Shown: one piece after another, positions 5,407 to 21,986 of the stretch
How positions within the stretch are numbered: position 1 is the stretch's first letter
How the letters are laid out: each line of letters opens with the position of its first letter
From: Patescibacteria group bacterium
GTDB lineage: Bacteria > Patescibacteriota > Saccharimonadia > CAILAD01 > BJGX01
DNA length: 32,903 bases
Assembly: GCA_009691555.1 (NCBI GenBank)
Contig: SICB01000002.1
Span: 1 to 32,903 of the forward strand
Direction: 5' to 3'
Translations under genes and position numbers: made by a program
Notes under the pieces: model-generated
The model's input: only the letters and a program-made list of their open reading frames with translations
The model's database searches: none
Told to the model about the DNA's origin: nothing

Positions 5407-5648
5407 CTGAGGTTTTTAGATTTGAATTGTTCATTAGTCCATTATACCTGATAATTAAACTTTACTTTTATACAATTTTGTTATACTATGTTGTATTGAA
5501 ATCCGTACCTACTAGAAAGGACTATTTTTGAACAAATATAGTCTGGCAGAGAGTATCAAGACATTGGTGGGCATCATGGTAATCTGCACTGCCGCCATGG
5601 CATGCGTGGTTGTCATAATGAGCCTCCCCTGAAACGAAAGGAGCTGCT

Positions 5649-5984
5649 GTGTCTTACGTCAGCAGAAGCAAACTTAAGGGCCACGGCCTTGTCGGCCAGC
5701 TTATCAGTATGACGAGGCTTCTTGACTTGCATAGCTACCAGGAGCAAGAGGTTGTTAATCCGAAATGGTCAAAAGGAATGATCGTTCGTTTCGTGCACAG
5801 ATCCGAAGTGATGTATTTTGAGTTTGAGGGCTTTGGCGACTTGCTTGGGCAGGAGGCCACCCTCTGCTACGGAAACCATGCGATCGCGAGTGGCCTTATC
5901 GGGATCGACAACGATGTCGCTCTCTACTATCAAAACCCCCTACCAAGGGTTGGTATGGCGATTACAGTTGCCACACCCGACTAG
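5649..5984 (+). CDS. hypothetical protein (GTG start)
   Basis: 111-aa ORF with SD AAAGGAG about 6 nt upstream of the GTG. I recognise no family. Confidence 0.35.
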   Translation: MSYVSRSKLKGHGLVGQLISMTRLLDLHSYQEQEVVNPKWSKGMIVRFVHRSEVMYFEFEGFGDLLGQEATLCYGNHAIASGLIGIDNDVALYYQNPLPRVGMAITVATPD

Positions 5985-12853: not shown

Positions 12854-14185
12854 CTACTGCCAGCGCCAGGTGTCTAGTATGTTTTTTGTGACCGTTTTAT
12901 CGAATTCGTCTTGGTAGGTCGTAGTAATAGCAACAACCGTGACAGTTTTGCCATCTTGCTGGTAGTTTTTACCCACCAATAGCAATGCTGCTAGGGAGTA
13001 GGTTTTGCCATCAGTAGCTTTGTATATAACCTGTGTGGCATCGAGACCGTCGAGCTTGATGACATCTGTTGACAGTACTGTTACGGACGCACTAGATATT
13101 GCCAAGTATTCGTCGATCTTTTGGTAAGGTTCTGTCTTGGTATCTACCGCAATTGTACTAATTGCTTTTTGGCCAAATGTAGATGGGCCAAAGCTGCAGT
13201 TTTCGTCTGTTGGGACAGAGTTGGGTATAAAGATAGCAAAGCTATAGCACTGCTTAGTGATGGTGGTATAGCCTTCGGGGGGAGTGGCTGGGCCAGAGCC
13301 TGACGAAGGTGTTGGCGTTGGTGTTGGTGCTGAGTCTGGCGTTGGTGTAGGCGCTGGGGTCGACTTTTTGGCAATAACTGCGAAGTAATAAACTCCGCCG
13401 CCGACCAAGGCGAGGCCCAAAACAATGCCAAGGATAATAAATATCATTTTTTTACTCTTTTTGGGTGCCGGGCCAGGAGTGCCCATGGTATTCATTGCGG
13501 ATACAGCAGCCCCCAAATTGGCGGCTCCCGGTAAAGCCTCTGGCTGGGCATAGCTCGGGGGCATTGGCTCAGGAGCTGGTGCTGGCATTGGCTCAGGAGC
13601 TGGTGCTGGCATTGGCTCAGGAGCTGGTGCTAGAATTGGCTCGGTGGCTGTTGCTGGCATTGGCTCAGGAGCTGGTGCTAGCATTGGCTCGGTGGCTGTT
13701 GCTGGCATTGGCTCGGCTGAGACACCAGGTGCCATCGAGCCATCATCCATAGCGCCTTCTATCGGCGTTACTGCGGCGTAGCTATCAGACATTGTTGGGT
13801 CCACCTGCGGCGGAGTTGGATTGGCAGGCAGAGGCATATCTAGAGTAGCAGATGGCTCTGGCGCGACAGTACTGTCAGGTGTGACTGGCATAAAGCTAGT
13901 GTCTGCAGGCGGGGCAAATGTCGGCTGATCTATTTGGCCTGCGCCCAAAGCATCATTCGGAGCTTGGGTACTGAGCATATCGGTATCGGCTTGGGCATCT
14001 TGTTGCCAGGCTGGGGCCGAATCCTGGGGGCTGGTTTGCGGTGAAAAAGTTGCCCCACCCTGCAATGACCCAGTCTGATTATCTGGCTGGCTGGCCGCAT
14101 CGCCTAAGCCCGTATTGCCTGCAGCAGCAGCTTGACCATCGGTCGTAATTTGATCTATCGGAAAGTTATTGTCTTGGGGTTGCAT
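12854..14185 (-). CDS. Pro/Ala/Thr-rich single-pass membrane protein with a C-terminal globular extracytoplasmic domain
   Basis: 443 aa. The long disordered N-terminus carries EPMPAPAP/EPMPATAT repeats. One TM segment is MIFIILGIVLGLALVGGGVYYFAVI. A PTPTP linker precedes a ~140-aa folded-looking C-terminus. Confidence 0.6.
   Translation of the reverse strand: MQPQDNNFPIDQITTDGQAAAAGNTGLGDAASQPDNQTGSLQGGATFSPQTSPQDSAPAWQQDAQADTDMLSTQAPNDALGAGQIDQPTFAPPADTSFMPVTPDSTVAPEPSATLDMPLPANPTPPQVDPTMSDSYAAVTPIEGAMDDGSMAPGVSAEPMPATATEPMLAPAPEPMPATATEPILAPAPEPMPAPAPEPMPAPAPEPMPPSYAQPEALPGAANLGAAVSAMNTMGTPGPAPKKSKKMIFIILGIVLGLALVGGGVYYFAVIAKKSTPAPTPTPDSAPTPTPTPSSGSGPATPPEGYTTITKQCYSFAIFIPNSVPTDENCSFGPSTFGQKAISTIAVDTKTEPYQKIDEYLAISSASVTVLSTDVIKLDGLDATQVIYKATDGKTYSLAALLLVGKNYQQDGKTVTVVAITTTYQDEFDKTVTKNILDTWRWQ
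13561..13720. repeat. in-frame 24-nt tandem repeat, about 6.5 copies in two unit variants
   Basis: Units gcattggctcaggagctggtgct(g/a) and g(c/a)attggctcggtggctgttgctg tile 13561-13704, with a partial copy after. They encode the 8-aa repeats PAPEPMPA and TATEP(M/I)LA. Confidence 0.85.
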
Positions 14186-15083: not shown

Positions 15084-16406
15084 ATGAAAAAGACAATCAA
15101 AAAAATTGTTCAGCCAATAATTCCAAAGTCGTTGATCAACTTTTTTCACTTCTCGGAGTCGATTGCTGCGGCCCAGAAATACCAGCACCCAAGCAACAAG
15201 ATGATTGTGATTGGGTTGGTTGGTAGTAAGGGCAAAACCACGACTGCCAATATGCTGTGGTCGATTTTGAGTGCCGAAGGCCATAAGGTCGGGCTTATCG
15301 GTACCGCCAATATTCGCTTTGGCCAAAAGGAAGAGCTAAATCATTATCATATGACTATGCCGGGGGCCTTTGTGCTTCAAGGATTACTGGCAAAAATGTC
15401 GGCTATGCACTGTCAATATGTAGTTATGGAAGTGCCATCGGAGGGTCAAACCCAACACCGGCATGTTGGTATCAATTTTGATGTATTGATATTTACCAAT
15501 GTCACCAATGAGCTAATGGCGGCCCATGGCTATAGTATCGACACCCTGCACAAGCACAACAAGCGTGTCTTTAAGCGGCTTAACCACTCTAAACGCAAAA
15601 CTATCGGCTTGCAAAAGATTGCAAAGATAATTGTCGCCAACGCTGACAGTAAAGATGCGCCTGACTACCTGCTGTTTCAGGCTGACAAGAAAATTACTTT
15701 TGGTCGGTCCAAAGATGCCGATTTTAGAATCAGCAATATTGCTCAAATTCCAGATAAAATTAGTTTTGATGTTAATGGTGATAATTACACTACCAAAATA
15801 CTCGGTAAAATAAACGCCATTAATGCAACCGGTGCTATCGCTACGGCTGTTGCGCTTGGTATTAGCGACAGATCTATCAAACAAGGACTGGCCAAGCTCC
15901 CCACCATCCCGGGCCGTATGGAAGTAATCGAGAGCAAGCAGCCCTTCGCTGTGGTGGTCGATTACGCCCATGAGCAAGCCAGCATGACCGCACTGATGGA
16001 CAGTGCGCGCGATATGATACCCAAAGGTGCCAAGGTTATTACCCTTTTGGGTGCCGAGGGTGGCGGACGAGATAGTGCCAAACGCCCCGAAATGGGCGCA
16101 ATCTGCGCCAAGGGCTCGGACATAATAATACTTAGTAATGTTGACCCCTACGATGACGATCCTGAAACAATCCTTGCTGATATCGCGGAGGGGGCGCTTG
16201 GGGCTGGTGCCGAAAAAAATAAGACTATGTTTATTGTCCCCGACCGCCGCGAAGGTATTCGTAAGGCCCTAGAGCTAGCTAGCAAAGACGACATAGTACT
16301 AATTACCGGCAAAGGTGCCGAACAGTCGATGGAAATTGGCGGCCAGTCGATAGCTTGGGATGACAGAAAAGTTGTCCGCGAAGAGCTGGCAAAATTAGTC
16401 GGTTAA
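15084..16406 (+). CDS. Mur ligase family protein, MurE-like, with a short N-terminal domain
   Basis: The P-loop is GLVGSKGKTTTANM. VVVDYAHE and GAEGGGRDSAKRPEMG match Mur ligase central and C-terminal motifs. The position of the MurE DNPR motif reads NVDPY. Confidence 0.8.
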   Translation: MKKTIKKIVQPIIPKSLINFFHFSESIAAAQKYQHPSNKMIVIGLVGSKGKTTTANMLWSILSAEGHKVGLIGTANIRFGQKEELNHYHMTMPGAFVLQGLLAKMSAMHCQYVVMEVPSEGQTQHRHVGINFDVLIFTNVTNELMAAHGYSIDTLHKHNKRVFKRLNHSKRKTIGLQKIAKIIVANADSKDAPDYLLFQADKKITFGRSKDADFRISNIAQIPDKISFDVNGDNYTTKILGKINAINATGAIATAVALGISDRSIKQGLAKLPTIPGRMEVIESKQPFAVVVDYAHEQASMTALMDSARDMIPKGAKVITLLGAEGGGRDSAKRPEMGAICAKGSDIIILSNVDPYDDDPETILADIAEGALGAGAEKNKTMFIVPDRREGIRKALELASKDDIVLITGKGAEQSMEIGGQSIAWDDRKVVREELAKLVG

Positions 16407-16503
16407 GCTTTACTGCTACCCTCTAGATGTAAACAGTGCTGGGCACATCCCCACCATTGAGATAAAAAATAAAAAGATCAGCCCTTATTTGTCCTTACAA
16501 TAT

Positions 16504-16531
16504 GCCCAACGTGTGTACTTGGCACGTCATT
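16504..16531. repeat. left copy of the 28-bp perfect inverted repeat
   Basis: gcccaacgtgtgtacttggcacgtcatt is the exact reverse complement of 18577-18604. Confidence 0.9.
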
Positions 16532-16554
16532 AACACTCGTGGTTACGGTACGCC

Positions 16555-17148
16555 CTAATTACTAATTTTTCTAGCGATAATATCAAAAACATGCCAATGT
16601 TTTGGATTTCCATCCGCTGTTTTACCTTCAAATTCTTTTACGTCAAATAGTATCACATTCATATCGCCGAGCATCAATTGCGCTTCTTCTTTTGTAACAA
16701 AAGTCAGATTTTTATTCAGATGCCATTCATCACGATTTCCAAAAAATTGCCCACAAAAAATTCCATTTTTAACTAGAGATTTTTTTATACCTTCAAACAC
16801 GCCAGTAAACTTACTGGAATGGATAAATGGCAATGAGTATATAGCCGCGGCTACGTCATACTCATTTTGAGGAAAATCAAAATCAGCAAAATCGGTGCGG
16901 AAAAATTTCAGCTCGTTTGATTTAATATTTTGAACAGAGTCCTCCACTGCTTTCTCTTTATCAATAATCGTTGTTTCAAAGCCCTGAGAAAGTAAATATT
17001 TAGTGTCTTTCAATGTACCTCCACCGCCAATATCTATTGCTTTATTTTTGACTTTAACATACTCCATGGCTTTAACGAGTAATGGAGCCGGAGGATAGCT
17101 CTTTGTATTCTCAAAATAATTTTCCCAATCAATTGATTTGTTATTCAT
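16555..17148 (-). CDS. class I SAM-dependent methyltransferase (TehB-like size and motifs)
   Basis: I trimmed the start to MNNKSIDW (ATG at 17148), because the tracked N-terminal extension runs through the upstream terminator hairpin. Motif I is AIDIGGGGTLKD. The gene is about 33% GC in the two 60-nt rows I counted, versus about 50% in the neighbours. Confidence 0.75.
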   Translation of the reverse strand: MNNKSIDWENYFENTKSYPPAPLLVKAMEYVKVKNKAIDIGGGGTLKDTKYLLSQGFETTIIDKEKAVEDSVQNIKSNELKFFRTDFADFDFPQNEYDVAAAIYSLPFIHSSKFTGVFEGIKKSLVKNGIFCGQFFGNRDEWHLNKNLTFVTKEEAQLMLGDMNVILFDVKEFEGKTADGNPKHWHVFDIIARKISN

Positions 17149-17170
17149 GTAGATTATTATAACAAAAATT

Positions 17171-17214
17171 AAAAAAAATCCTACACAGTATACAATGATG
17201 TATACTGTGTAGGA
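17171..17214 (-). terminator. strong rho-independent terminator after the 27-aa peptide gene
   Basis: Perfect 16-bp stem tcctacacagtataca (17179-17194) with tgtatactgtgtagga (17199-17214) and a 4-nt loop. A8 at 17171-17178 gives U8 downstream on the minus strand. Confidence 0.8.
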
Positions 17215-17232
17215 TAGCACTACGGTCACAGG

Positions 17233-17316
17233 TTACGTTGTGCAGCCCTGACAGGATGCGCATTTCGCGGAGTAAAGCTTCTCAGCGATGCGCTTAATTC
17301 GTTCCTGACGTGTCAT
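17233..17316 (-). CDS. 27-aa Cys-rich peptide MTRQERIKRIAEKLYSAKCASCQGCTT (candidate RiPP precursor)
   Basis: Not in the ORF track because it is too short. ATG is at 17316 and TAA at 17233-17235. SD AAGGAGGTGAT lies 4 nt before the ATG. It is 35 nt downstream of the oxygenase stop and 18 nt upstream of the terminator hairpin. Confidence 0.5.
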   Translation of the reverse strand: MTRQERIKRIAEKLYSAKCASCQGCTT

Positions 17317-17351
17317 TTCTATCACCTCCTTCTTTCTGGGATCGTGCGGGT

Positions 17352-18008
17352 TCATACGTACTGTATAAAAACCCTGAGCTGTAAACGCCTACTCGACGGA
17401 TCAAGCTGATCGCGTCCATGAAGCATTACGAAGTTATCGAACCAGATTGCCTGACCAGCCTTGAGCTTAAAAGACAAAAATCTTTTCTCACTCCGTCGGA
17501 TCAACAGTACCTCGTTGAAGCGTTTGATCGCGGTCACTTGGGAATCATTGAGCTTGTCTAGATTCACGAGGGCGAACGCTGGCAGCCAGTAAACGTGCGG
17601 TGGTCGACCTTCTTCTACGGTCAACAGCGGGAGCCGATCTTCACTGCGTGGCAAGGGTATCTGAACACTTTTCAAGTCCTCAACCTCTAGCAGAGAAAGC
17701 TCTCCCAGTATGTCACGAGTATCAATCAGCAGATTCTCTCCACCACCCAGATTATCCACCTCTTCACAAAACAAGCCCACAACGTTCGCTAGCGGATAAT
17801 CTGTATGAAACGGAACCTCATCCGGTAAGTGGGAGTACCCGGTGTATTTTTCCACCGTTTCTTTGGGTTTGAGGAAAATTTCCCTGGTTTGAGTAACCTT
17901 GCCAAGTTCGTTACAAATTGCCAAGTAGTTTTCCCTGTCGCCGACATCGGCGATAACGTACCTGTTCAGATCGAGACAGCTACGGATATTCAATACGCTA
18001 GGTTTCAT
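17352..18008 (-). CDS. TauD/TfdA-family Fe(II)/2-oxoglutarate-dependent oxygenase
   Basis: The HxD motif is in VPFHTDYP. The distal His and Arg are in FDNFVMLHGRD. I prefer the ATG at 18008 (GAGG 9 nt upstream) over the tracked GTG at 18023. It overlaps the upstream gene by 11 nt. Confidence 0.75.
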   Translation of the reverse strand: MKPSVLNIRSCLDLNRYVIADVGDRENYLAICNELGKVTQTREIFLKPKETVEKYTGYSHLPDEVPFHTDYPLANVVGLFCEEVDNLGGGENLLIDTRDILGELSLLEVEDLKSVQIPLPRSEDRLPLLTVEEGRPPHVYWLPAFALVNLDKLNDSQVTAIKRFNEVLLIRRSEKRFLSFKLKAGQAIWFDNFVMLHGRDQLDPSSRRLQLRVFIQYV

Positions 18009-18498
18009 GATGCACCGCCTCACAGGGTTGATCGAAAAGTCTCGGTTTCTGAAGCTTGACGAGCACTTCGGCTGAGTATCTTACGGAATATTCTTCATAC
18101 CACCTGATCATCGTGTCCTCGCCGACTACTTCGCAGATGTAGTTCAGTTGCAACTCAGTTTCTTCGCGACTGGGTGGTTGGAAGTCGGGTGCGCCCGGGG
18201 AATGATGAATGAAGGTCCCCAGATACTCCTTACAGAATTGCTCGTAGTCGCGCGTATGGAGGACGAAGGTGTGCCAATATTCATCGACAACCACCATCCC
18301 CGAATGGATGACCAGAATACGCGGGATGTCTTCGTGATTTTGCGAGCGATCTTGCTTCAGTCGGGCATTGAGCCATAACCACTTAAGTGCCTCTAAGGCG
18401 ATTTCCTGCGCCTCGGGCAATGAGACCGCATACAATACTCTGAACTGGTTAAGTACTCGGTCGTTCTTATAGTTCAAGGCTTCCTCGAGACTACGCAT
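17998..18498 (-). CDS. hypothetical His-rich protein, possibly DUF1399/GRDP-like
   Basis: I trimmed the start to MRSLEEAL (ATG at 18498, SD AAGGAG 5 nt upstream). The motif VVDEYWHTFVLHTRDYEQFCKEYLGTFIHHSP resembles the D-x2-WH-x-H-x-L-x3-Y-x3-C...HH-P pattern I recall for glycine-rich-domain-containing-protein-like families. That is recollection only. Confidence 0.6.
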   Translation of the reverse strand: MRSLEEALNYKNDRVLNQFRVLYAVSLPEAQEIALEALKWLWLNARLKQDRSQNHEDIPRILVIHSGMVVVDEYWHTFVLHTRDYEQFCKEYLGTFIHHSPGAPDFQPPSREETELQLNYICEVVGEDTMIRWYEEYSVRYSAEVLVKLQKPRLFDQPCEAVHHET

Positions 18499-18549
18499 GT
18501 TCACTCCTTCCTGGAGTTTATTGAGATTGTTAATGTACACTAAAAACAC

Positions 18550-18578
18550 AGATTACCAGAAGGTGACCTTTTTATCAA
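18550..18578 (-). promoter_or_regulatory. sigma70-like promoter for the islet operon, TTGATA-17nt-TAATCT on the minus strand
   Basis: The minus-strand -35 TTGATA is plus-strand tatcaa at 18573-18578 and overlaps the inner end of the right inverted repeat. The -10 TAATCT is plus-strand agatta at 18550-18555. The spacer is 17 nt. Confidence 0.4.
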
Positions 18579-18604
18579 TGACGTGCCAAGTACACACGTT
18601 GGGC
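18577..18604. repeat. right copy of the 28-bp perfect inverted repeat
   Basis: aatgacgtgccaagtacacacgttgggc is the exact reverse complement of 16504-16531. Its outer 5 nt (tgggc, 18600-18604) are already part of the Mur-ligase-tail homology. Confidence 0.9.
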
Positions 18605-18907
18605 GCAATCTGCGCCAAGGGCTCGGACATAATAATACTTAGTAATGTTGACCCCTACGAAGACGATCCTGAAACAATCCTTGCTGATATCGCTGAGGGG
18701 GCGCTTGGGGCTGGTGCCGAAAAAAATAAGAGTATGTTTATTGTCCCCGACCGCCGCGAAGGTATTCGCAAAGCCTTGCAGTTGGCCCAAAAAGACGACT
18801 TGGTGCTAATTACCGGCAAGGGTGCCGAACAGTCGATGGAAATTGGCGGCCAGTCGATAGCTTGGGATGATAGAAAAGTTGTCCGCGAAGAGCTATTGAA
18901 GCTTTAA
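18600..18907 (+). pseudogene. displaced 3' fragment of the Mur ligase gene (about 102 codons)
   Basis: It encodes GAICAKGSDIIILSNVDPYEDDPETILADIAEGALGAGAEKNKSMFIVPDRREGIRKALQLAQKDDLVLITGKGAEQSMEIGGQSIAWDDRKVVREELLKL. That is nearly identical to the C-terminus of the 15084-16406 product. It lacks the ATPase domain. Confidence 0.8.
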
Positions 18908-19776
18908 GTTTTTTTACTCAAATCTCTAACCGCGACCGGGCACAAGCCATTGTGCAACTTATCGCAAGCTTTGCAGCAAATAAATAGCTGGTGACAGTCT
19001 GGCTTGGCGCAGTCGATGTAGCGATCGCTAGATTTTTGACAGTGCGCGCATTGGCCCAGTACTTGCTGGCCACTCTCGGTATCGCCATTGGTTATCATGC
19101 GCTCATCAAACACAAAGTTTTTGCCCTTAAAGTACCCGTCAGGATAGTGCTCGAGGTACTTTGCTATTCCGCCTTCAAGCTGATAAACATCCGTAAAACC
19201 CTCCTCGGCAAGTAGTGCAGTGGCTTTTTCGCAGCGGATCCCCCCGGTGCAGTATGTAACGACTTTTTTGGTTTTATCGATCTTGAGGTTTTTGATTTTT
19301 TTGGGAAGCTCATAAAACTTGACCGTGTCTGGTTGTATCGCACCATCAAACCGCCCAACCTCGTATTCATAATTATTGCGCATATCCACCACCACCATAT
19401 CTTCGCCCTTTTCAAATAGCCGATGCATTGCTTTAGGCGTTAGGTATTGGCCGGTTTTTTTCATATCGACTTTTTTGCCGAGGGTCACTATCTCGGGCCG
19501 ATACTTGACTATCATTTTTGGAAAAGGCATTTTACCAGCCGGGGTACGCTTAAATGCGATGCCTCCAAAGCTCGGGTGGGCGTTCATATACTCGACATAC
19601 TGCCTGAGCTCGGAGCGACTTCCGGCCACGGTACCATTAATTCCCTCTTCACTAATTAAAATACGGCCCTTCAAGCCGATGCCATTACAGACTAGCTTGT
19701 GCTGAGTGGTTTCGAACTTCGGGTCGCTGATATCTACGAATTTATAATAAAGTAGTACAAAAATGTTATTCGACAT
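18904..19776 (-). CDS. trhO: rhodanese-domain protein of the UPF0176/YceA family (tRNA uridine(34) hydroxylase TrhO-like)
   Basis: The N-terminus is VLLYYKFVDISDP. The rhodanese active-site loop is YCTGGIRCEKA. A Cys-rich C-terminal tail is present. Confidence 0.8.
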   Translation of the reverse strand: MSNNIFVLLYYKFVDISDPKFETTQHKLVCNGIGLKGRILISEEGINGTVAGSRSELRQYVEYMNAHPSFGGIAFKRTPAGKMPFPKMIVKYRPEIVTLGKKVDMKKTGQYLTPKAMHRLFEKGEDMVVVDMRNNYEYEVGRFDGAIQPDTVKFYELPKKIKNLKIDKTKKVVTYCTGGIRCEKATALLAEEGFTDVYQLEGGIAKYLEHYPDGYFKGKNFVFDERMITNGDTESGQQVLGQCAHCQKSSDRYIDCAKPDCHQLFICCKACDKLHNGLCPVAVRDLSKKT

Positions 19777-19896: not shown

Positions 19897-20655
19897 ATGG
19901 CACTAGATTTACAGAACAGGCTGTTCGAACTACCGGATATCAAGCCACCCTGCAATTTCAGGAGGGCTCTACTCAAACTTAGCGGCGAAGCCCTCATGGG
20001 TAGCCAAGAATCTGGCGTCGATGCCGATGTCATCAGAAGATTCGCTCAAGAAATTGTGATTGCTCGTCAGGATCTCGATGTTGAGCTAGCAGTGGTAGTT
20101 GGCGGTGGTAACTTCTGGAGGGGCAAACAGCACCCCGAGATGGACCGTAACCAAGCAGATTTCGCTGGTATGCTCGCAACCGTAATCAACGGCTTGTGCC
20201 TGCAAGATCATCTCGAAAAGCTCAACCAGCCAACTCGAGTTATGTCGGCAATCAGTATGGAAAAGGTTGCCGAGCCCTACATTCGACGGCGTGCCATTAG
20301 GCACCTCGAAAAAGGTCGGGTTGTAATCTTGGCCGGAGGTACGGGCAACCCAACCTTCACTACCGATACTGCAGCTGCACTACGCTCGGTCGAAATCGAA
20401 GCCGAAGTACTGCTGATGGCCAAAAATGGTGTCGATGGAGTTTACTCTACCGACCCCAAAACTAACCCAGACGCAGTTCGCTACAAGGAGCTAAACTACC
20501 TTGATATTATCAATGATGATCTCAAAGTAATGGACCCCACGGCCGCAACCCATGCCATGGAAAACCATCTACCGATTGTTGTTTTCGATGGTTTGCGTGA
20601 AGGTGGCCTCGAGGAAGCCCTCGTCAACCCATATTCGGGAACCGTTATTAAATAG
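19897..20655 (+). CDS. pyrH: UMP kinase
   Basis: Motifs LLKLSGEAL, VVVGGGNFWRG and ILAGGTGNPTFTTDTAAALR. SD GAGGAGAGG lies upstream. Confidence 0.93.
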   Translation: MALDLQNRLFELPDIKPPCNFRRALLKLSGEALMGSQESGVDADVIRRFAQEIVIARQDLDVELAVVVGGGNFWRGKQHPEMDRNQADFAGMLATVINGLCLQDHLEKLNQPTRVMSAISMEKVAEPYIRRRAIRHLEKGRVVILAGGTGNPTFTTDTAAALRSVEIEAEVLLMAKNGVDGVYSTDPKTNPDAVRYKELNYLDIINDDLKVMDPTAATHAMENHLPIVVFDGLREGGLEEALVNPYSGTVIK

Positions 20656-20700
20656 CTCTCTAAAAGAGCCTTACTAGTCGCTTGCAATTACTGCAGGCGA

Positions 20701-21426
20701 TTATTTTATTAGATTCTGCTCTAGCTTGGTGCTGTAGAGGTTGTTCTCGATTAGCCAAGATTGAAAAGATTTGTCTAGTCCAAAAATTACTATCACACCG
20801 ACAATAACAAGTACTATACCCAGACCTCTTTTGAATTTGCCATTAGGATCCTCAAGCCAATTGAGCTTTTTGATGAGTCGTTGTCCAAACATAGTGATTA
20901 GCAGTAAGACCAAGCAAAGCCCCAAAACGTAGGCTAGAATGTAGCTTAGCCCCGTGATGAAACTGGCCGGCAAAACAATCGAAAGTATCAGCAAGTACAC
21001 TGGGCTGCAACTGCTAAAGACTGGGCCGAGGGCGGCGCCAACCAAAACTGCACCCCAAAATCCCTTCTTCTTGTAGCCTTGTCCAAGAGCGAGATTGGAC
21101 TTTTTATAAATACCCAGCTTGGCTTCGATGGCGGTCCATAAATTTGGATAGAGCAAGCTAACACCAAATAAAATTACTATCAGCCCCGATATCAAACTCC
21201 ATATCCAGGCAGGTATTCCCAGTAGCGCGGTGCTGGCTTTTAATAAAAAAGTAAATAGCACAATCGATATAAACAGCGAGCCAATTACAATGTACGGACG
21301 GTTTTTTTCTTTAGACGAGATTGAGCCGCCGACCACAACAGGTATTATCGGCAAGACGCAAGGCGACATAGTAGTCAGGACGCCGGCCAAAAAAGAAATC
21401 AGTAAAAAGCCAAGTGTCTCTGGCAT
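20701..21426 (-). CDS. ccdA: cytochrome c biogenesis / thiol-disulfide electron transporter, CcdA/DsbD family
   Basis: Polytopic membrane protein with the two conserved Cys contexts MSPCVLPIIP and FSSCSPVY. Confidence 0.8.
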   Translation of the reverse strand: MPETLGFLLISFLAGVLTTMSPCVLPIIPVVVGGSISSKEKNRPYIVIGSLFISIVLFTFLLKASTALLGIPAWIWSLISGLIVILFGVSLLYPNLWTAIEAKLGIYKKSNLALGQGYKKKGFWGAVLVGAALGPVFSSCSPVYLLILSIVLPASFITGLSYILAYVLGLCLVLLLITMFGQRLIKKLNWLEDPNGKFKRGLGIVLVIVGVIVIFGLDKSFQSWLIENNLYSTKLEQNLIK

Positions 21427-21932
21427 TATTTAACGATCTGGTCATTAAGCTGGTCAATATTAGAGCTACCGGACCACTTCTTGATCAAATTTCCGTTAGC
21501 ATCAACCTGCACAAAGGTGTGCTGGTAAGTCACACCATACTTCTGTTTTAAGGCAGTGTTTTTATCGTAATCGACACTGGCAATAGTTAGATTTTCGGGT
21601 ATTTGTTGCTTAAGGAAATTGGCATTGGCTGCTTGGCAGGTCGAGCACCACTTGGCATTAAAAAATAACACTACCTGCCCATTTTCGGCTCTTGAGAGAT
21701 CGGATGCCTCGTAGCTTTTATATACCCCTGCAGTCTGATTCGTGGCATTTTGTGAATCCTTTTTGGTCGGACTTGTAGAGGCTGGCGTGGTGCTATCTAT
21801 GCTCTCTGATTTTGAATTTGCCATTAGGATTAAGAGAATAGCGATACCGGCCGCCAGAGATACTACCACTGCCAGCGCAATAAAAGCTATCTTTCTATTC
21901 TTATTGTTTTTACTCATTTTATTGCCTTTCAT
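21426..21932 (-). CDS. membrane-anchored thioredoxin-like protein (TlpA/ResA-like)
   Basis: An N-terminal signal anchor is followed by a thioredoxin fold with WCSTCQ. Its stop overlaps the ccdA start. The likely true start is MSKNNKN at 21917. Confidence 0.75.
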   Translation of the reverse strand: MKGNKMSKNNKNRKIAFIALAVVVSLAAGIAILLILMANSKSESIDSTTPASTSPTKKDSQNATNQTAGVYKSYEASDLSRAENGQVVLFFNAKWCSTCQAANANFLKQQIPENLTIASVDYDKNTALKQKYGVTYQHTFVQVDANGNLIKKWSGSSNIDQLNDQIVK

Positions 21933-21986
21933 ATTATTTATATGGATATATTATAAAATCTTTTTTAGCTCAGGGCTGTTGTGGTG

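What the first reader, a model, noticed from the sequence alone, without database searches (positions are those of the whole stretch)
16093..18907. Islet inserted in the Mur ligase 3' end with a diverged ~295-nt direct duplication of the gene tail
16093-16387 and 18600-18894 align without gaps at a constant offset of 2507 nt. By hand I count about 19 mismatches. The first 61 nt are identical, and the differences cluster downstream.

The amino-acid changes are few and conservative (D/E, T/S, E/Q, S/Q, I/L). So both tails look like functional alleles from related lineages, not a copy that is decaying.

This is the classic signature of an integrative element that targets the 3' end of a gene and brings a replacement tail. 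On that reading the 61-nt identical block is the att core. The distal copy (18600-18907) directly abuts the convergent native neighbour trhO and is probably the original host tail. No integrase, transposase or excisionase gene is present in the islet or anywhere in the window.
Basis: partly seen in the sequence, partly recalled or inferred. Interest (0 to 1): 0.72.

Follow-up and report, generated by a model that had tools for sequence, protein, structure and literature searches.

The report
Integrase-free gene islet duplicating MurE tail
A 2.2-kb four-gene cassette sits behind the cell-wall ligase gene of an ultra-small (Patescibacteria) bacterium, flanked by two diverged copies of the ligase's last 295 bases; it most likely arrived by ordinary homologous plus microhomology recombination with DNA from a related strain, not through a dedicated integrase.

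Summary
Bases 16093-16387 and 18600-18894 are a gap-free 295-nt direct repeat with 19 mismatches, and the first 61 nt are identical.

A same-species contig (L120) and the sister species L003 and L002 end the Mur ligase in ...LLKL*/...LAKL*, with its stop overlapping the stop of convergent trhO. Copy B is therefore the native tail.

The "integrative element with a 61-nt att core" reading is not supported.
- No recombinase domain was found in the ORFs scanned across the window.
- The replacement tail (copy A) is followed by a remnant of an 820-aa gene that sits at this position in sister lineages, so it is donor chromosome, not an attP.
- The distal junction is a 5-nt microhomology (TGGGC).
- Three sequenced islet-bearing strains, plus a fourth known from its protein only, carry different mosaics of the two tail alleles, which implies variable crossover points.
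- The same four-gene cassette occurs elsewhere in Patescibacteria without any Mur tail.
- An independent insertion-duplication with a different insert and joint exists at the same gene (L125, L004).

Best reading: insertion-duplication by one-sided homology, either homology-facilitated illegitimate recombination or Campbell-type, anchored on the conserved MurE 3' end.

A perfect 28-nt inverted repeat bracketing the cassette remains unexplained. Interest is moderate.

The parts
15084..16406 (+). Mur ligase (MurE-like, 440 aa), intact. Its last ~100 codons are the replacement tail.
   Evidence: Pfam Mur_ligase_M and Mur_ligase_C. Closest homologues are annotated as UDP-MurNAc-tripeptide synthetase of Saccharibacteria/Patescibacteria.
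16093..16387 (+). Copy A of the 295-nt direct repeat (proximal, inside the intact ligase gene).
   Evidence: It carries the E-type allele block (ALELASKDDIVL) in the window.
16388..16460 (.). Donor-type gene end ...AKLVG* (16388-16406) plus a remnant of the 3' end of an 820-aa minus-strand gene (16407-16460, reads LNGGDVPSTVYI*).
   Evidence: Homologous to L001 9320-9378 and L004, where the 820-aa gene is intact between Mur(KLVG*) and trhO. A similar remnant is present in L118.
16461..16503 (.). 43 nt of mostly unknown origin between the gene remnant and the inverted repeat.
   Evidence: Apart from the window's own lineage (L068), only the last ~5 nt (16499-16503) match any fetched locus; there they continue the cassette homology with L069.
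16504..16531 (.). Left arm of the perfect 28-nt inverted repeat (downstream end of the cassette): GCCCAACGTGTGTACTTGGCACGTCATT.
   Evidence: This arm is conserved (27/28) downstream of the cassette in L069/L071.
16555..17148 (-). Class I SAM methyltransferase (197 aa, weak TehB-like), low G+C (0.34-0.38).
   Evidence: Pfam and NCBIfam weak hits; composition; conserved in all cassette copies.
17178..17215 (-). Intrinsic terminator: a 17-bp perfect stem followed by a run of eight U, directly after the peptide gene.
   Evidence: (z = -6.5).
17233..17316 (-). 27-aa Cys-rich peptide gene (MTRQERIKRIAEKLYSAKCASCQGCTT) with a strong Shine-Dalgarno sequence (GGAGG).
   Evidence: Conserved with its Shine-Dalgarno sequence in cassette copies of 75-91% nt identity: L069-L073, L075-L077 and L081.
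17352..18008 (-). TauD/TfdA-family Fe(II)/2-oxoglutarate dioxygenase-like protein (218 aa).
   Evidence: Pfam PF02668, E = 1e-11.
17998..18498 (-). UCP032817-like protein (166 aa, PF27765), all-helical, function unknown.
   Evidence: Precomputed Pfam annotation. AlphaFold model pLDDT 88.7, with no significant PDB fold match.
18550..18578 (-). Promoter-like boxes of the cassette: TTGATA, 17-nt spacer, TAATCT.
   Evidence: Read from the sequence. The boxes are conserved as TTGACA/TAGACA ... TAnnnT in L069, L072 and L078. They are below the threshold of the consensus scanner, so this is inferred.
18577..18604 (.). Right arm of the 28-nt inverted repeat. Its last 5 nt (TGGGC) are also the first 5 nt of copy B, marking the illegitimate joint.
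   Evidence: The outer 17 nt of this arm are absent from every other cassette copy.
18600..18907 (+). Copy B: the displaced native 3' tail of the ligase (aa 338-438, ends ...ELLKL*), a gene fragment with no ligase start.
   Evidence: Its end and its overlap with the trhO stop are identical to the empty sites in L003 and L120. In L068 and L121, copy B is nearly identical to the same-species empty-site allele.
18904..19776 (-). trhO-like rhodanese-domain gene, the native convergent neighbour.
   Evidence: Pfam UPF0176_N, Rhodanese and Rhodanese_C. Adjacent to Mur in the empty-site genomes.

Best explanation
**What it is.** The structure is an insertion-duplication made by the cell's general recombination machinery, not by a site-specific integrase.

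**How it formed (inferred).**
- DNA from a related lineage entered a genome with the ancestral arrangement, in which Mur ends ...LKL* with its stop overlapping the stop of trhO.
- The donor lineage had the arrangement Mur(...KLVG*) followed by an 820-aa gene. In the donor, a horizontally mobile four-gene cassette had already replaced most of that 820-aa gene.
- One end of the incoming DNA recombined homologously inside the highly conserved 3' part of the Mur ligase gene.
- The other end was joined illegitimately at a 5-nt microhomology (TGGGC) to codon 337/338 of the recipient's ligase gene.
- This is homology-facilitated illegitimate recombination. A single crossover of a circularised 2.5-kb fragment (Campbell-type) gives the same product.

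**Result.** The order is: intact ligase with a donor-type tail, 820-aa gene remnant, cassette, displaced native tail, trhO.

**Afterwards.** Recombination between the two tails, or with other strains' alleles, reshuffled the tail alleles and spread the islet among strains. The same recombination can delete the islet cleanly.

**Status of the steps.**
- Shown: the anatomy, the empty sites, the donor-gene remnant, the microhomology joint, the mosaic tails and the second independent event.
- Inferred: uptake by natural transformation, RecA dependence, and whether the intermediate was linear or circular.
For: 1. **Empty sites.** They occur in the same species (L120: Mur N-terminus 332/336 identical, 438 aa, stop overlapping trhO) and in sister species (L003, L002). 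Seven of the 11 members of the 90% protein cluster are the 438-aa form; six end ...LLKL and one ...LKSL.
2. **Donor chromosome carried in.** Copy A ends in KLVG* and is followed by a 54-nt remnant of the 820-aa gene. That gene is intact at this position in L001, L004 and L115-117.
3. **Microhomology joint.** The distal joint reads ...ACACGT[TGGGC]GCAATC. Mur has ...GAAA[TGGGC]GCAATC and the other repeat arm has ...ACACGT[TGGGC]ATATTG.
4. **Variable crossover positions.** In the window, copy A is E-type and copy B is Q-type. In L068, copy A is Q-type from about 16178 onward and copy B is E-type, matching the native L120 allele. P0148 switches between 16225 and 16265. L121 is yet another mosaic. 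The 5' ~85 nt are homogenised within each genome but differ between genomes at 6 sites.
5. **The islet is younger than its backgrounds.** It differs at 5 of ~2200 sites from L068 and from L121. The left flank differs by 1.1-1.2% and trhO by 3.3% (L068) (Poisson p ~7e-6).
6. **The cassette is a portable unit with no fixed handle.** It occurs in at least five other genomic contexts in Patescibacteria at 75-91% nt identity, without a Mur tail.
7. **Independent second event at the same gene.** In L125 and L004 the order is: full Mur, 820-aa gene, 75 nt of a foreign trhO 3' end, then Mur from aa 284. The joint is at a CAG microhomology and the tails are 79% identical over 461 nt. In L125 the native neighbour is not even trhO.
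8. **A third rearrangement.** L118 shows a microhomology deletion at this locus.
9. **No recombinase.** None was found in the ORFs scanned across the window.
10. **Competence in the group.** Cultivated Saccharibacteria are naturally competent and integrate linear DNA by homologous recombination, and com genes are conserved across the group (PMC10633639).
Against: - The perfect 28-nt inverted repeat that brackets the cassette exactly, with the joint at its very end, is not predicted by this model. It might mark a recombinase site or a transposon-like end.
- In L069 the same cassette lies next to a tRNA-Tyr gene and is flanked by diverged partial tRNA-like direct repeats. That is the classic context of integrase-driven islands.
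- Only 32.9 kb of the genome was seen, so a recombinase acting in trans cannot be excluded.
- Duplication-type outcomes are not the usual product reported for homology-facilitated illegitimate recombination (from my own knowledge of the Acinetobacter and pneumococcus work; not checked here).
- Mosaic tails could also arise by gene conversion after a site-specific event.
Confidence: 0.6

Rival explanations
1. The islet is an integrase-less remnant or satellite of a site-specific integrative element (a cis-mobilisable, CIME-like island). A recombinase encoded elsewhere recognises the Mur tail as attB. The two 295-nt copies are attL and attR, and the identical 5' block contains the core.
For: - Direct repeats of a gene's 3' end flank the insert, the gene is restored by an incoming tail, and clean empty sites exist.
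- The same cassette in L069 sits beside tRNA-Tyr and is flanked by partial tRNA-like repeats.
Against: - No recombinase was found in the ORFs scanned across the window.
- The incoming tail drags an adjacent chromosomal gene remnant.
- The repeat's left edge is a bare 5-nt microhomology.
- Allele exchange points differ among strains.
- The second event at this gene starts at aa 284.
- None of about 10 related loci shows an integrase-bearing element here.
- Cassette copies elsewhere lack a Mur-derived attP.
Confidence: 0.14
2. The cassette is a discrete module bounded by 28-nt inverted sites and moved by an enzyme supplied in trans. It would resemble Acinetobacter pdif modules moved by XerC/D, or a non-autonomous transposon with terminal inverted repeats. 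On this reading the tail duplication is a by-product.
For: - The 28-nt inverted repeat is perfect and brackets the cassette exactly, with 0 expected by chance.
- The arms are intact in L068. L121 shows only 5 differences from the window across 16504-18599 plus an inverted match at the left arm.
- The distal joint coincides with the outer end of one arm.
- The outer heptamers GCCCAAC / GTTGGGC happen to fit the integron core-site consensus RYYYAAC / GTTRRRY. This is read from the sequence and is a lead only.
Against: - No target-site duplication is present (flanks are ...CAATAT and GCAATC...).
- The upstream arm is absent from every other cassette copy. L069 keeps only the downstream arm, and L072, L075, L078 and L079 have neither arm, with homology in L072 and L078 stopping at the inner edges of the arms.
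- There are no further copies in the window, in JGI metagenome contigs or in IMG/VR.
- The sequence has only a 5-bp internal dyad, not the 11-6-11 dif layout.
- The cassette orientation is the same in all four islet contigs, so there is no sign of inversion.
Confidence: 0.1
3. An in-situ ancient segmental or tandem duplication of the ligase tail, with the copies diverging in place.
For: The repeat is a direct duplication with 6% divergence, mostly at synonymous sites.
Against: - Copy A and copy B end in two different haplotype-specific junctions (KLVG* plus the 820-aa remnant versus LLKL* overlapping trhO). A tandem duplication cannot produce this.
- Empty sites occur within the same species.
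- The islet is younger than its flanks.
Confidence: 0.03
4. A mis-assembly that merges two strain variants of the ligase tail.
For: All data are metagenome assemblies, and strain mixtures are evident.
Against: - The same junctions are found in at least three independent assemblies from different projects (the window, L068 from ENA and L121 from JGI), each with its own SNPs. A fourth contig (P0148, no DNA held) shows the methyltransferase gene right after the ligase.
- Identical stretches between the copies are at most ~90 nt, shorter than the k = 141 implied by the contig names, so the copies can be phased (inference).
- The joint between the repeat arm and Mur codon 338 is a novel sequence that must exist in the reads.
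Confidence: 0.03

Closest known systems
Homology-facilitated illegitimate recombination during natural transformation (described for Acinetobacter, Streptococcus pneumoniae and Pseudomonas stutzeri; recalled from my own knowledge)
   Same: - One end of the foreign DNA is anchored by homology and the other is joined at a short G+C-rich microhomology (TGGGC here; CAG in L125/L004).
- No mobile-element enzymes are needed.
- The host group is naturally competent (PMC10633639).
   Different: - This is a natural population-level case rather than a laboratory selection.
- The incoming DNA carries its own copy of the anchor's distal part, so both tails persist as a 295-nt direct repeat.
- The recombination machinery was not tested here.
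Campbell-type insertion-duplication (single crossover of a circular DNA carrying an internal homologous fragment, as used for insertion-duplication mutagenesis in Firmicutes)
   Same: - The product topology is identical: the homologous segment is duplicated on both sides of the insert.
- The alleles of the two copies partition according to the crossover point, as seen in the window versus L068.
- It is reversible by recombination between the repeats.
   Different: - It requires a circular 2,507-nt intermediate, for which there is no direct evidence.
- Such a circle would itself have to be formed by an illegitimate TGGGC joint.
Genomic islands integrated at 3' ends of genes by tyrosine integrases, and their integrase-less derivatives (cis-mobilisable elements, CIMEs)
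   Same: Flanking direct repeats made of the target's 3' end, a target gene restored by incoming sequence, and presence/absence polymorphism with clean empty sites.
   Different: - No integrase was found.
- There is no constant attP or core.
- Exchange points vary.
- The replacement tail is contiguous with a neighbouring chromosomal gene remnant from a sister lineage.
pdif modules of Acinetobacter plasmids (cargo flanked by inversely oriented 28-bp XerC/D sites, recombinase in trans)
   Same: Cargo of a few genes without its own recombinase, bracketed by 28-nt sequences in inverted orientation.
   Different: - The 28-mer lacks the dif-like architecture.
- It is not found around other cargo or around other copies of this cassette.
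- No Xer involvement is shown.

Membership tests
Site-specific integrative element / CIME targeting a gene 3' end | Integrase (tyrosine or serine recombinase) in or next to the element | tested here: not met
   No recombinase Pfam hit in the cassette proteins or in the other candidate ORFs of at least 100 aa scanned across the window. The one unknown cassette protein is all-helical with no PDB fold match. The rest of the genome was not available.
Site-specific integrative element / CIME targeting a gene 3' end | Direct repeats (attL/attR) derived from the target's 3' end, and an empty attB in relatives | tested here: met
   295-nt repeat. Empty sites in L120, L003 and L002.
Site-specific integrative element / CIME targeting a gene 3' end | A constant core with a fixed crossover position | tested here: not met
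   Allele exchange points differ among the window, L068, P0148 and L121. The identical 5' block differs between strains at 6 sites but is homogenised within each genome. This could in principle be later gene conversion.
Site-specific integrative element / CIME targeting a gene 3' end | An element-borne attP that travels with the element to other hosts | tested here: not met
   Cassette copies in L069, L072, L075, L078 and L079 have no Mur-derived sequence. In the window the incoming tail is followed by a donor chromosomal gene remnant.
Homology-facilitated illegitimate recombination / Campbell-type insertion-duplication | One junction lies within extended homology, with a variable crossover position | tested here: met
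   Mosaic tails with at least three different switch points.
Homology-facilitated illegitimate recombination / Campbell-type insertion-duplication | The other junction is at a microhomology of a few bases with no flanking homology | tested here: met
   TGGGC at 18600-18604. CAG in the independent L004/L125 event.
Homology-facilitated illegitimate recombination / Campbell-type insertion-duplication | The inserted DNA is ordinary chromosomal DNA of a relative, carrying over neighbouring genes | tested here: met
   820-aa gene remnant at 16407-16460. In L125 a foreign 75-nt trhO fragment is carried in.
Homology-facilitated illegitimate recombination / Campbell-type insertion-duplication | Dependence on DNA uptake (competence) and RecA; a circular or linear intermediate | not testable with these tools
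   Only group-level support: natural competence and homologous integration in cultivated Saccharibacteria (PMC10633639).
Transposon with terminal inverted repeats / MITE-like element | Terminal inverted repeats plus a target-site duplication, and multiple copies | tested here: not met
   The inverted repeat is present. There is no target-site duplication, no other copies in the window or the collections, and the repeat is absent from most cassette copies.
Xer-dependent (pdif-like) module | 28-bp sites with two ~11-bp recombinase-binding arms around a 6-bp spacer, shared by different modules | tested here: not met
   The 28-mer has only a 5-bp internal dyad (ACGTG...CACGT), read from the sequence. 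The sites are not found with any other cargo. Recombinase binding is not testable.
Integron gene cassette | A single attC at the cassette's 3' end, recombination at G|TT of the core site, and IntI nearby | tested here: not met
   The outer heptamers fit RYYYAAC / GTTRRRY, but the arms lie 2 kb apart on either side of the cargo. The joint retains GTTGGGC where a G|TT crossover with Mur would give GATGGGC. No IntI was found.

The most novel reading that the evidence does not exclude
The four-gene cassette may be a recombinase-free mobile module of Patescibacteria. On this reading it spreads by carrying a captured, highly conserved gene tail as a homology handle. RecA pops it out as a 2.5-kb circle, and competent relatives take it up and re-integrate it. 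Alternatively, the 28-nt inverted sites could be targets of a host recombinase acting in trans, making it a pdif-like system in the candidate phyla radiation. Its cargo (a TauD-like dioxygenase, a UCP032817-like protein, a 27-aa CxxCxxC peptide followed by a terminator, and a methyltransferase) could be an undescribed peptide-modification pathway.
Probability: 0.15. Interest if true: 0.7.

Novelty: new member of a known kind. Interest (0 to 1): 0.4.

Why it matters
Patescibacteria have tiny genomes with few recognisable mobile elements, so how they gain genes is poorly documented. This locus preserves most states of one acquisition in public metagenomes:
- the empty site;
- the donor-type arrangement;
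- the filled site with both gene tails;
- several recombinant mosaics.

A second, independent event of the same architecture is also present at the same gene.

Together these give a natural example, testable at the read level, of gene gain and loss by general recombination in a naturally competent, uncultivated lineage. The anchor is a conserved essential-gene tail, and the recombination combines homology with microhomology.

The case also shows that "duplicated gene tail plus islet" is not by itself proof of an integrase.

Finally, it flags an uncharacterised, widely transferred four-gene cassette that encodes a Cys-rich peptide.

Tried and rejected
- **Exact search for the 28-nt repeat core.** No hits in JGI metagenome contigs or IMG/VR. 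A fuzzy search (up to 6 mismatches) of all fetched loci found it only in the window's lineage and, as a single arm, in L069/L071.
- **Islet DNA against plasmid and phage collections.** No match. A profile of the UCP032817-like protein against IMG/VR gave only short, distant motif matches.
- **The 28-mer as a degenerate tRNA-Tyr 5' half.** This idea was suggested by a MAFFT alignment with the L069 tRNA array. It was not confirmed: Rfam finds nothing at the repeat, and only the true tRNA-Tyr in L069. I dropped it.
- **The 28-mer as an RNA structure or terminator.** It shows no stability beyond shuffled sequences.
- **The UCP032817-like protein as a hidden recombinase.** It has no hit in the local Pfam library, NCBIfam or PDB sequences (precomputed annotation only: PF27765). 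The confident all-alpha model has no fold match. Literature search for the family name: 0 papers.
- **The 820-aa gene as a mobile-element gene.** No Pfam or NCBIfam hit.
- **Flanking repeats around other cassette copies** (L072, L075, L078, L079). None found, so duplicated flanks are not a constant hallmark of the cassette.
- **Exact-protein look-up of the window's own ligase.** Not on record.
- **Integron-like reading of GTTGGGC / GCCCAAC.** Rejected on geometry and on the position of the crossover.

Full report
**1. Observation**

Bases 16093-16387 and 18600-18894 align without gaps at an offset of 2507 nt. There are 19 mismatches in 295 nt (93.6% identity), and the first 61 nt are identical.

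Both copies encode the C-terminal part of a Mur ligase (Pfam Mur_ligase_C).

Homology stops 19 nt before the stop codon of the full gene.
- The full gene (15084-16406, 440 aa) ends ...ELAKLVG*.
- The distal fragment ends ...ELLKL*, and its TAA overlaps the stop of the convergent trhO-like gene at 18904-19776.

**2. What lies between the copies**

All islet genes are on the minus strand:
- a UCP032817-like protein (17998-18498);
- a TauD-family dioxygenase-like protein (17352-18008);
- a 27-aa Cys-rich peptide gene with a strong ribosome-binding site (17233-17316), followed by a very strong intrinsic terminator (17178-17215);
- a low-G+C class I methyltransferase (16555-17148).

- A perfect 28-nt inverted repeat (16504-16531 / 18577-18604; none expected by chance) brackets the cassette. 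The last five bases of its right arm, TGGGC, are also the first five bases of copy B.
- Directly after the stop codon of the full ligase, 16407-16460 is a remnant of the 3' end of another gene. Read on the minus strand it gives LNGGDVPSTVYI*.

No recombinase, transposase or excisionase domain was found in the cassette proteins or in the other candidate ORFs of at least 100 aa scanned across the window.

**3. Relatives**

The organism is a Patescibacterium of the Saccharibacteria-related UBA4664 group. The interval between Mur and pyrH exists in several haplotypes.

| Type | Arrangement | Loci |
|---|---|---|
| 1 | Mur ends ...L(L/A)KL*, stop overlapping the trhO stop | L002, L003, L120 |
| 2 | Mur ends ...KLVG*, followed by an intact 820-aa minus-strand gene, then trhO | L001, L115-117 |
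| 3 | A deletion of type 2 that keeps ~100 nt of the 820-aa gene's 3' end and removes trhO, joined at a CCAG-type microhomology | L118/119 |
| 4 | The window's arrangement (islet with both tails) | window, L068, L121 (contig ends inside copy B); probably the P0148 contig (gene table only: the methyltransferase gene follows Mur) |

L120 belongs to the same species as the window: its Mur N-terminus is 332/336 identical.

In the 90%-identity protein cluster of the window's ligase, 4 members are the 440-aa KLVG form and 7 are the 438-aa form; six of these end ...LLKL and one ...LKSL. The islet is therefore a presence/absence polymorphism within one species.

Copy B plus trhO is the native type 1 junction. 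Copy A plus the remnant is a type 2 junction. The window thus joins two haplotypes that otherwise occur in different lineages.

**4. Why not an att/integrase element**

1. The "replacement tail" is contiguous with a neighbouring chromosomal gene remnant in the same relative position as in sister genomes. It is therefore a piece of a relative's chromosome rather than an element-borne attP.
2. The left edge of the repeat is a bare 5-nt overlap. The joint reads ...ACACGT[TGGGC]GCAATC. Mur has ...GAAA[TGGGC]GCAATC, and the other repeat arm has ...ACACGT[TGGGC]ATATTG.
3. The tail alleles are shuffled differently in every islet-bearing strain.
   - A block at 16263-16300 exists as an E-type (ALELASKDDIVL) and a Q-type (ALQLAQKDDLVL).
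   - The window has E in copy A and Q in copy B.
   - L068 has Q in copy A from about 16178 onward and E in copy B.
   - P0148 switches between 16225 and 16265.
   - L121 is a further mosaic.
   - In L068 and L121, copy B is almost identical to the same-species empty-site allele L120.
   - The 5' ~85 nt are identical within each genome but differ between genomes at six sites. The "61-nt identical block" therefore reflects homogenisation rather than a conserved core.
   - These patterns are what a Campbell-type or one-sided homologous exchange with variable crossover points predicts. A fixed site-specific crossover would need additional gene conversion to produce them.
4. The cassette is a portable unit without a fixed handle.
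   - The same four genes, including the peptide, occur in at least five unrelated contexts in other Patescibacteria: L069-71 at 91% nt identity, L072/73/81 at 89%, L078 at 88%, L079/80 at 83% and L075-77 at 75%.
   - None of these copies carries Mur-derived sequence.
5. An independent event has the same architecture at the same gene.
   - In L125 and L004 the order is: full Mur (KLVGQT*), the 820-aa gene, 75 nt of a trhO 3' end, then Mur again from aa 284.
   - The joint is at a CAG microhomology, and the two tails are only 79% identical over 461 nt.
   - In L125 the native downstream neighbour is a different gene, so the trhO fragment was imported with the insert.
   - Fragment proteins with this joint form clusters of 9 and 5 member sequences.

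**5. Age and spread**

Between the window and L068, and between the window and L121, the segment 16388-18599 differs at only 5 positions (99.8% identity). The left flank differs by 1.1-1.2%, and trhO by 3.3% (L068) (Poisson p about 7e-6). The two tails are the most divergent stretches because their alleles are swapped.

The islet is therefore younger than the backgrounds it sits in. It has moved between strains through recombination in its flanks.

**6. Most likely mechanism**

The best explanation is a one-sided-homology insertion-duplication.
- The incoming DNA was a fragment of a type 2-derived chromosome in which the cassette had replaced the 820-aa gene.
- It recombined homologously within the MurE 3' region. 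At the nucleotide level this region is much better conserved between species than the rest of the gene: 85-91% identity against ~80% for the gene as a whole in L001 and L003.
- The far end was sealed at the TGGGC microhomology.

This is the product expected of homology-facilitated illegitimate recombination or, equivalently, of a single crossover by a circularised 2,507-nt fragment.

Cultivated Saccharibacteria are naturally competent and integrate linear DNA by homologous recombination (PMC10633639). The uptake route is therefore plausible, but it is inferred.

Recombination between the two 295-nt copies would delete the islet cleanly. It would yield an allele such as E-type plus LLKL*, which is what most of the same-species empty sites carry. 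The data cannot tell whether those sites are pre-insertion or post-excision.

**7. What remains unexplained**

The perfect 28-nt inverted repeat is not required by this model.
- Its downstream arm is part of the cassette's 3' flank and is shared with L069 (27/28).
- The outer 17 nt of the upstream arm occur only in the window's lineage. Only the inner ~10 nt (GCACGxCATT) are shared with L069.
- One possibility, which is my inference, is that the upstream arm was copied from the downstream arm by template switching when the illegitimate joint formed.
- Another possibility is that the arms are sites for an enzyme acting in trans. Against this: the 28-mer is absent from other cassette copies and from the scanned collections, has no target-site duplication and lacks a dif-like layout.

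In L069 the cassette sits after a tRNA-Tyr gene, between diverged partial tRNA-like repeats. An integrase-mediated episode in the cassette's earlier history therefore cannot be excluded.

**8. Comparison with known systems and verdict**

The structure works like homology-facilitated illegitimate recombination or Campbell-type insertion-duplication. It resembles integrase-less islands (CIMEs) only superficially. It fails the defining tests for a site-specific element, a transposon with terminal inverted repeats, a pdif module and an integron cassette (see the membership table).

It is a real, well-documented natural example of a known kind of event in a poorly studied phylum. The cargo cassette is uncharacterised and may itself deserve study.

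- **Interest:** 0.4.
- **Novelty:** new member of a known kind.
partly supported. The insertion, the native distal tail and the empty site are right; the att core and site-specific integration are not supported.

Noticed in passing
window 17233-17316 (-), with terminator 17178-17215: A 27-aa peptide gene (MTRQERIKRIAEKLYSAKCASCQGCTT) has a strong Shine-Dalgarno sequence and a 17-bp-stem terminator. It is conserved, as C..C..CQGC, in cassette copies of other Patescibacteria and lies between a TauD-like dioxygenase gene and a methyltransferase gene. It looks like a precursor peptide of an undescribed modification pathway, or a small metal-binding peptide.
   Followed up: partly
window 16504-16531 and 18577-18604: A perfect 28-nt inverted repeat brackets the cassette. 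Its outer heptamers GCCCAAC / GTTGGGC fit the integron core-site consensus. The upstream arm is unique to this lineage. Its origin and function are unexplained.
   Followed up: partly
L125 1033-5647 and L004 8001-12453: A second insertion-duplication at the same ligase gene. The order is: full Mur, an 820-aa gene of unknown function, 75 nt of a trhO 3' end, then Mur from aa 284. The joint is at a CAG microhomology. In L004 the second tail is again followed by the 820-aa gene's 3' end, which may indicate a tandem array.
   Followed up: partly
L118 7270-7500 (also L119): A related genome has lost trhO and most of the 820-aa gene by a microhomology deletion, leaving Mur(KLVG*) plus a ~100-nt remnant next to pyrH. 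trhO is therefore dispensable in this clade.
   Followed up: no
L069 5530-5910 and 8008-8089: A true tRNA-Tyr (5647-5733) is surrounded by degenerate tRNA-Tyr-like units with large insertions. The cassette lies between two diverged partial copies (~82 nt, ending CCCACCAACT). This may be a relic of repeated integrations at a tRNA gene.
   Followed up: partly
window 12854-14185 (-), especially 13400-13800: A 443-aa Pro/Ala-rich low-complexity protein with PAPEPMP-type repeats and a predicted membrane segment. Its repeat region is only 84-86% identical to L068, while neighbouring DNA is ~99% identical, so it is a hypervariable surface-protein candidate.
   Followed up: no
window 16500-17250: The methyltransferase gene has much lower G+C (0.34-0.38) than the rest of the cassette (0.47-0.52) and the flanks. 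It follows a terminator, which suggests it was added to the cassette separately.
   Followed up: no
window 20400-21950 versus L068: Identity to the sister strain falls stepwise from ~96% to 76-85% across the DsbD-like and thioredoxin genes. This points to another recombination boundary downstream of pyrH.
   Followed up: no
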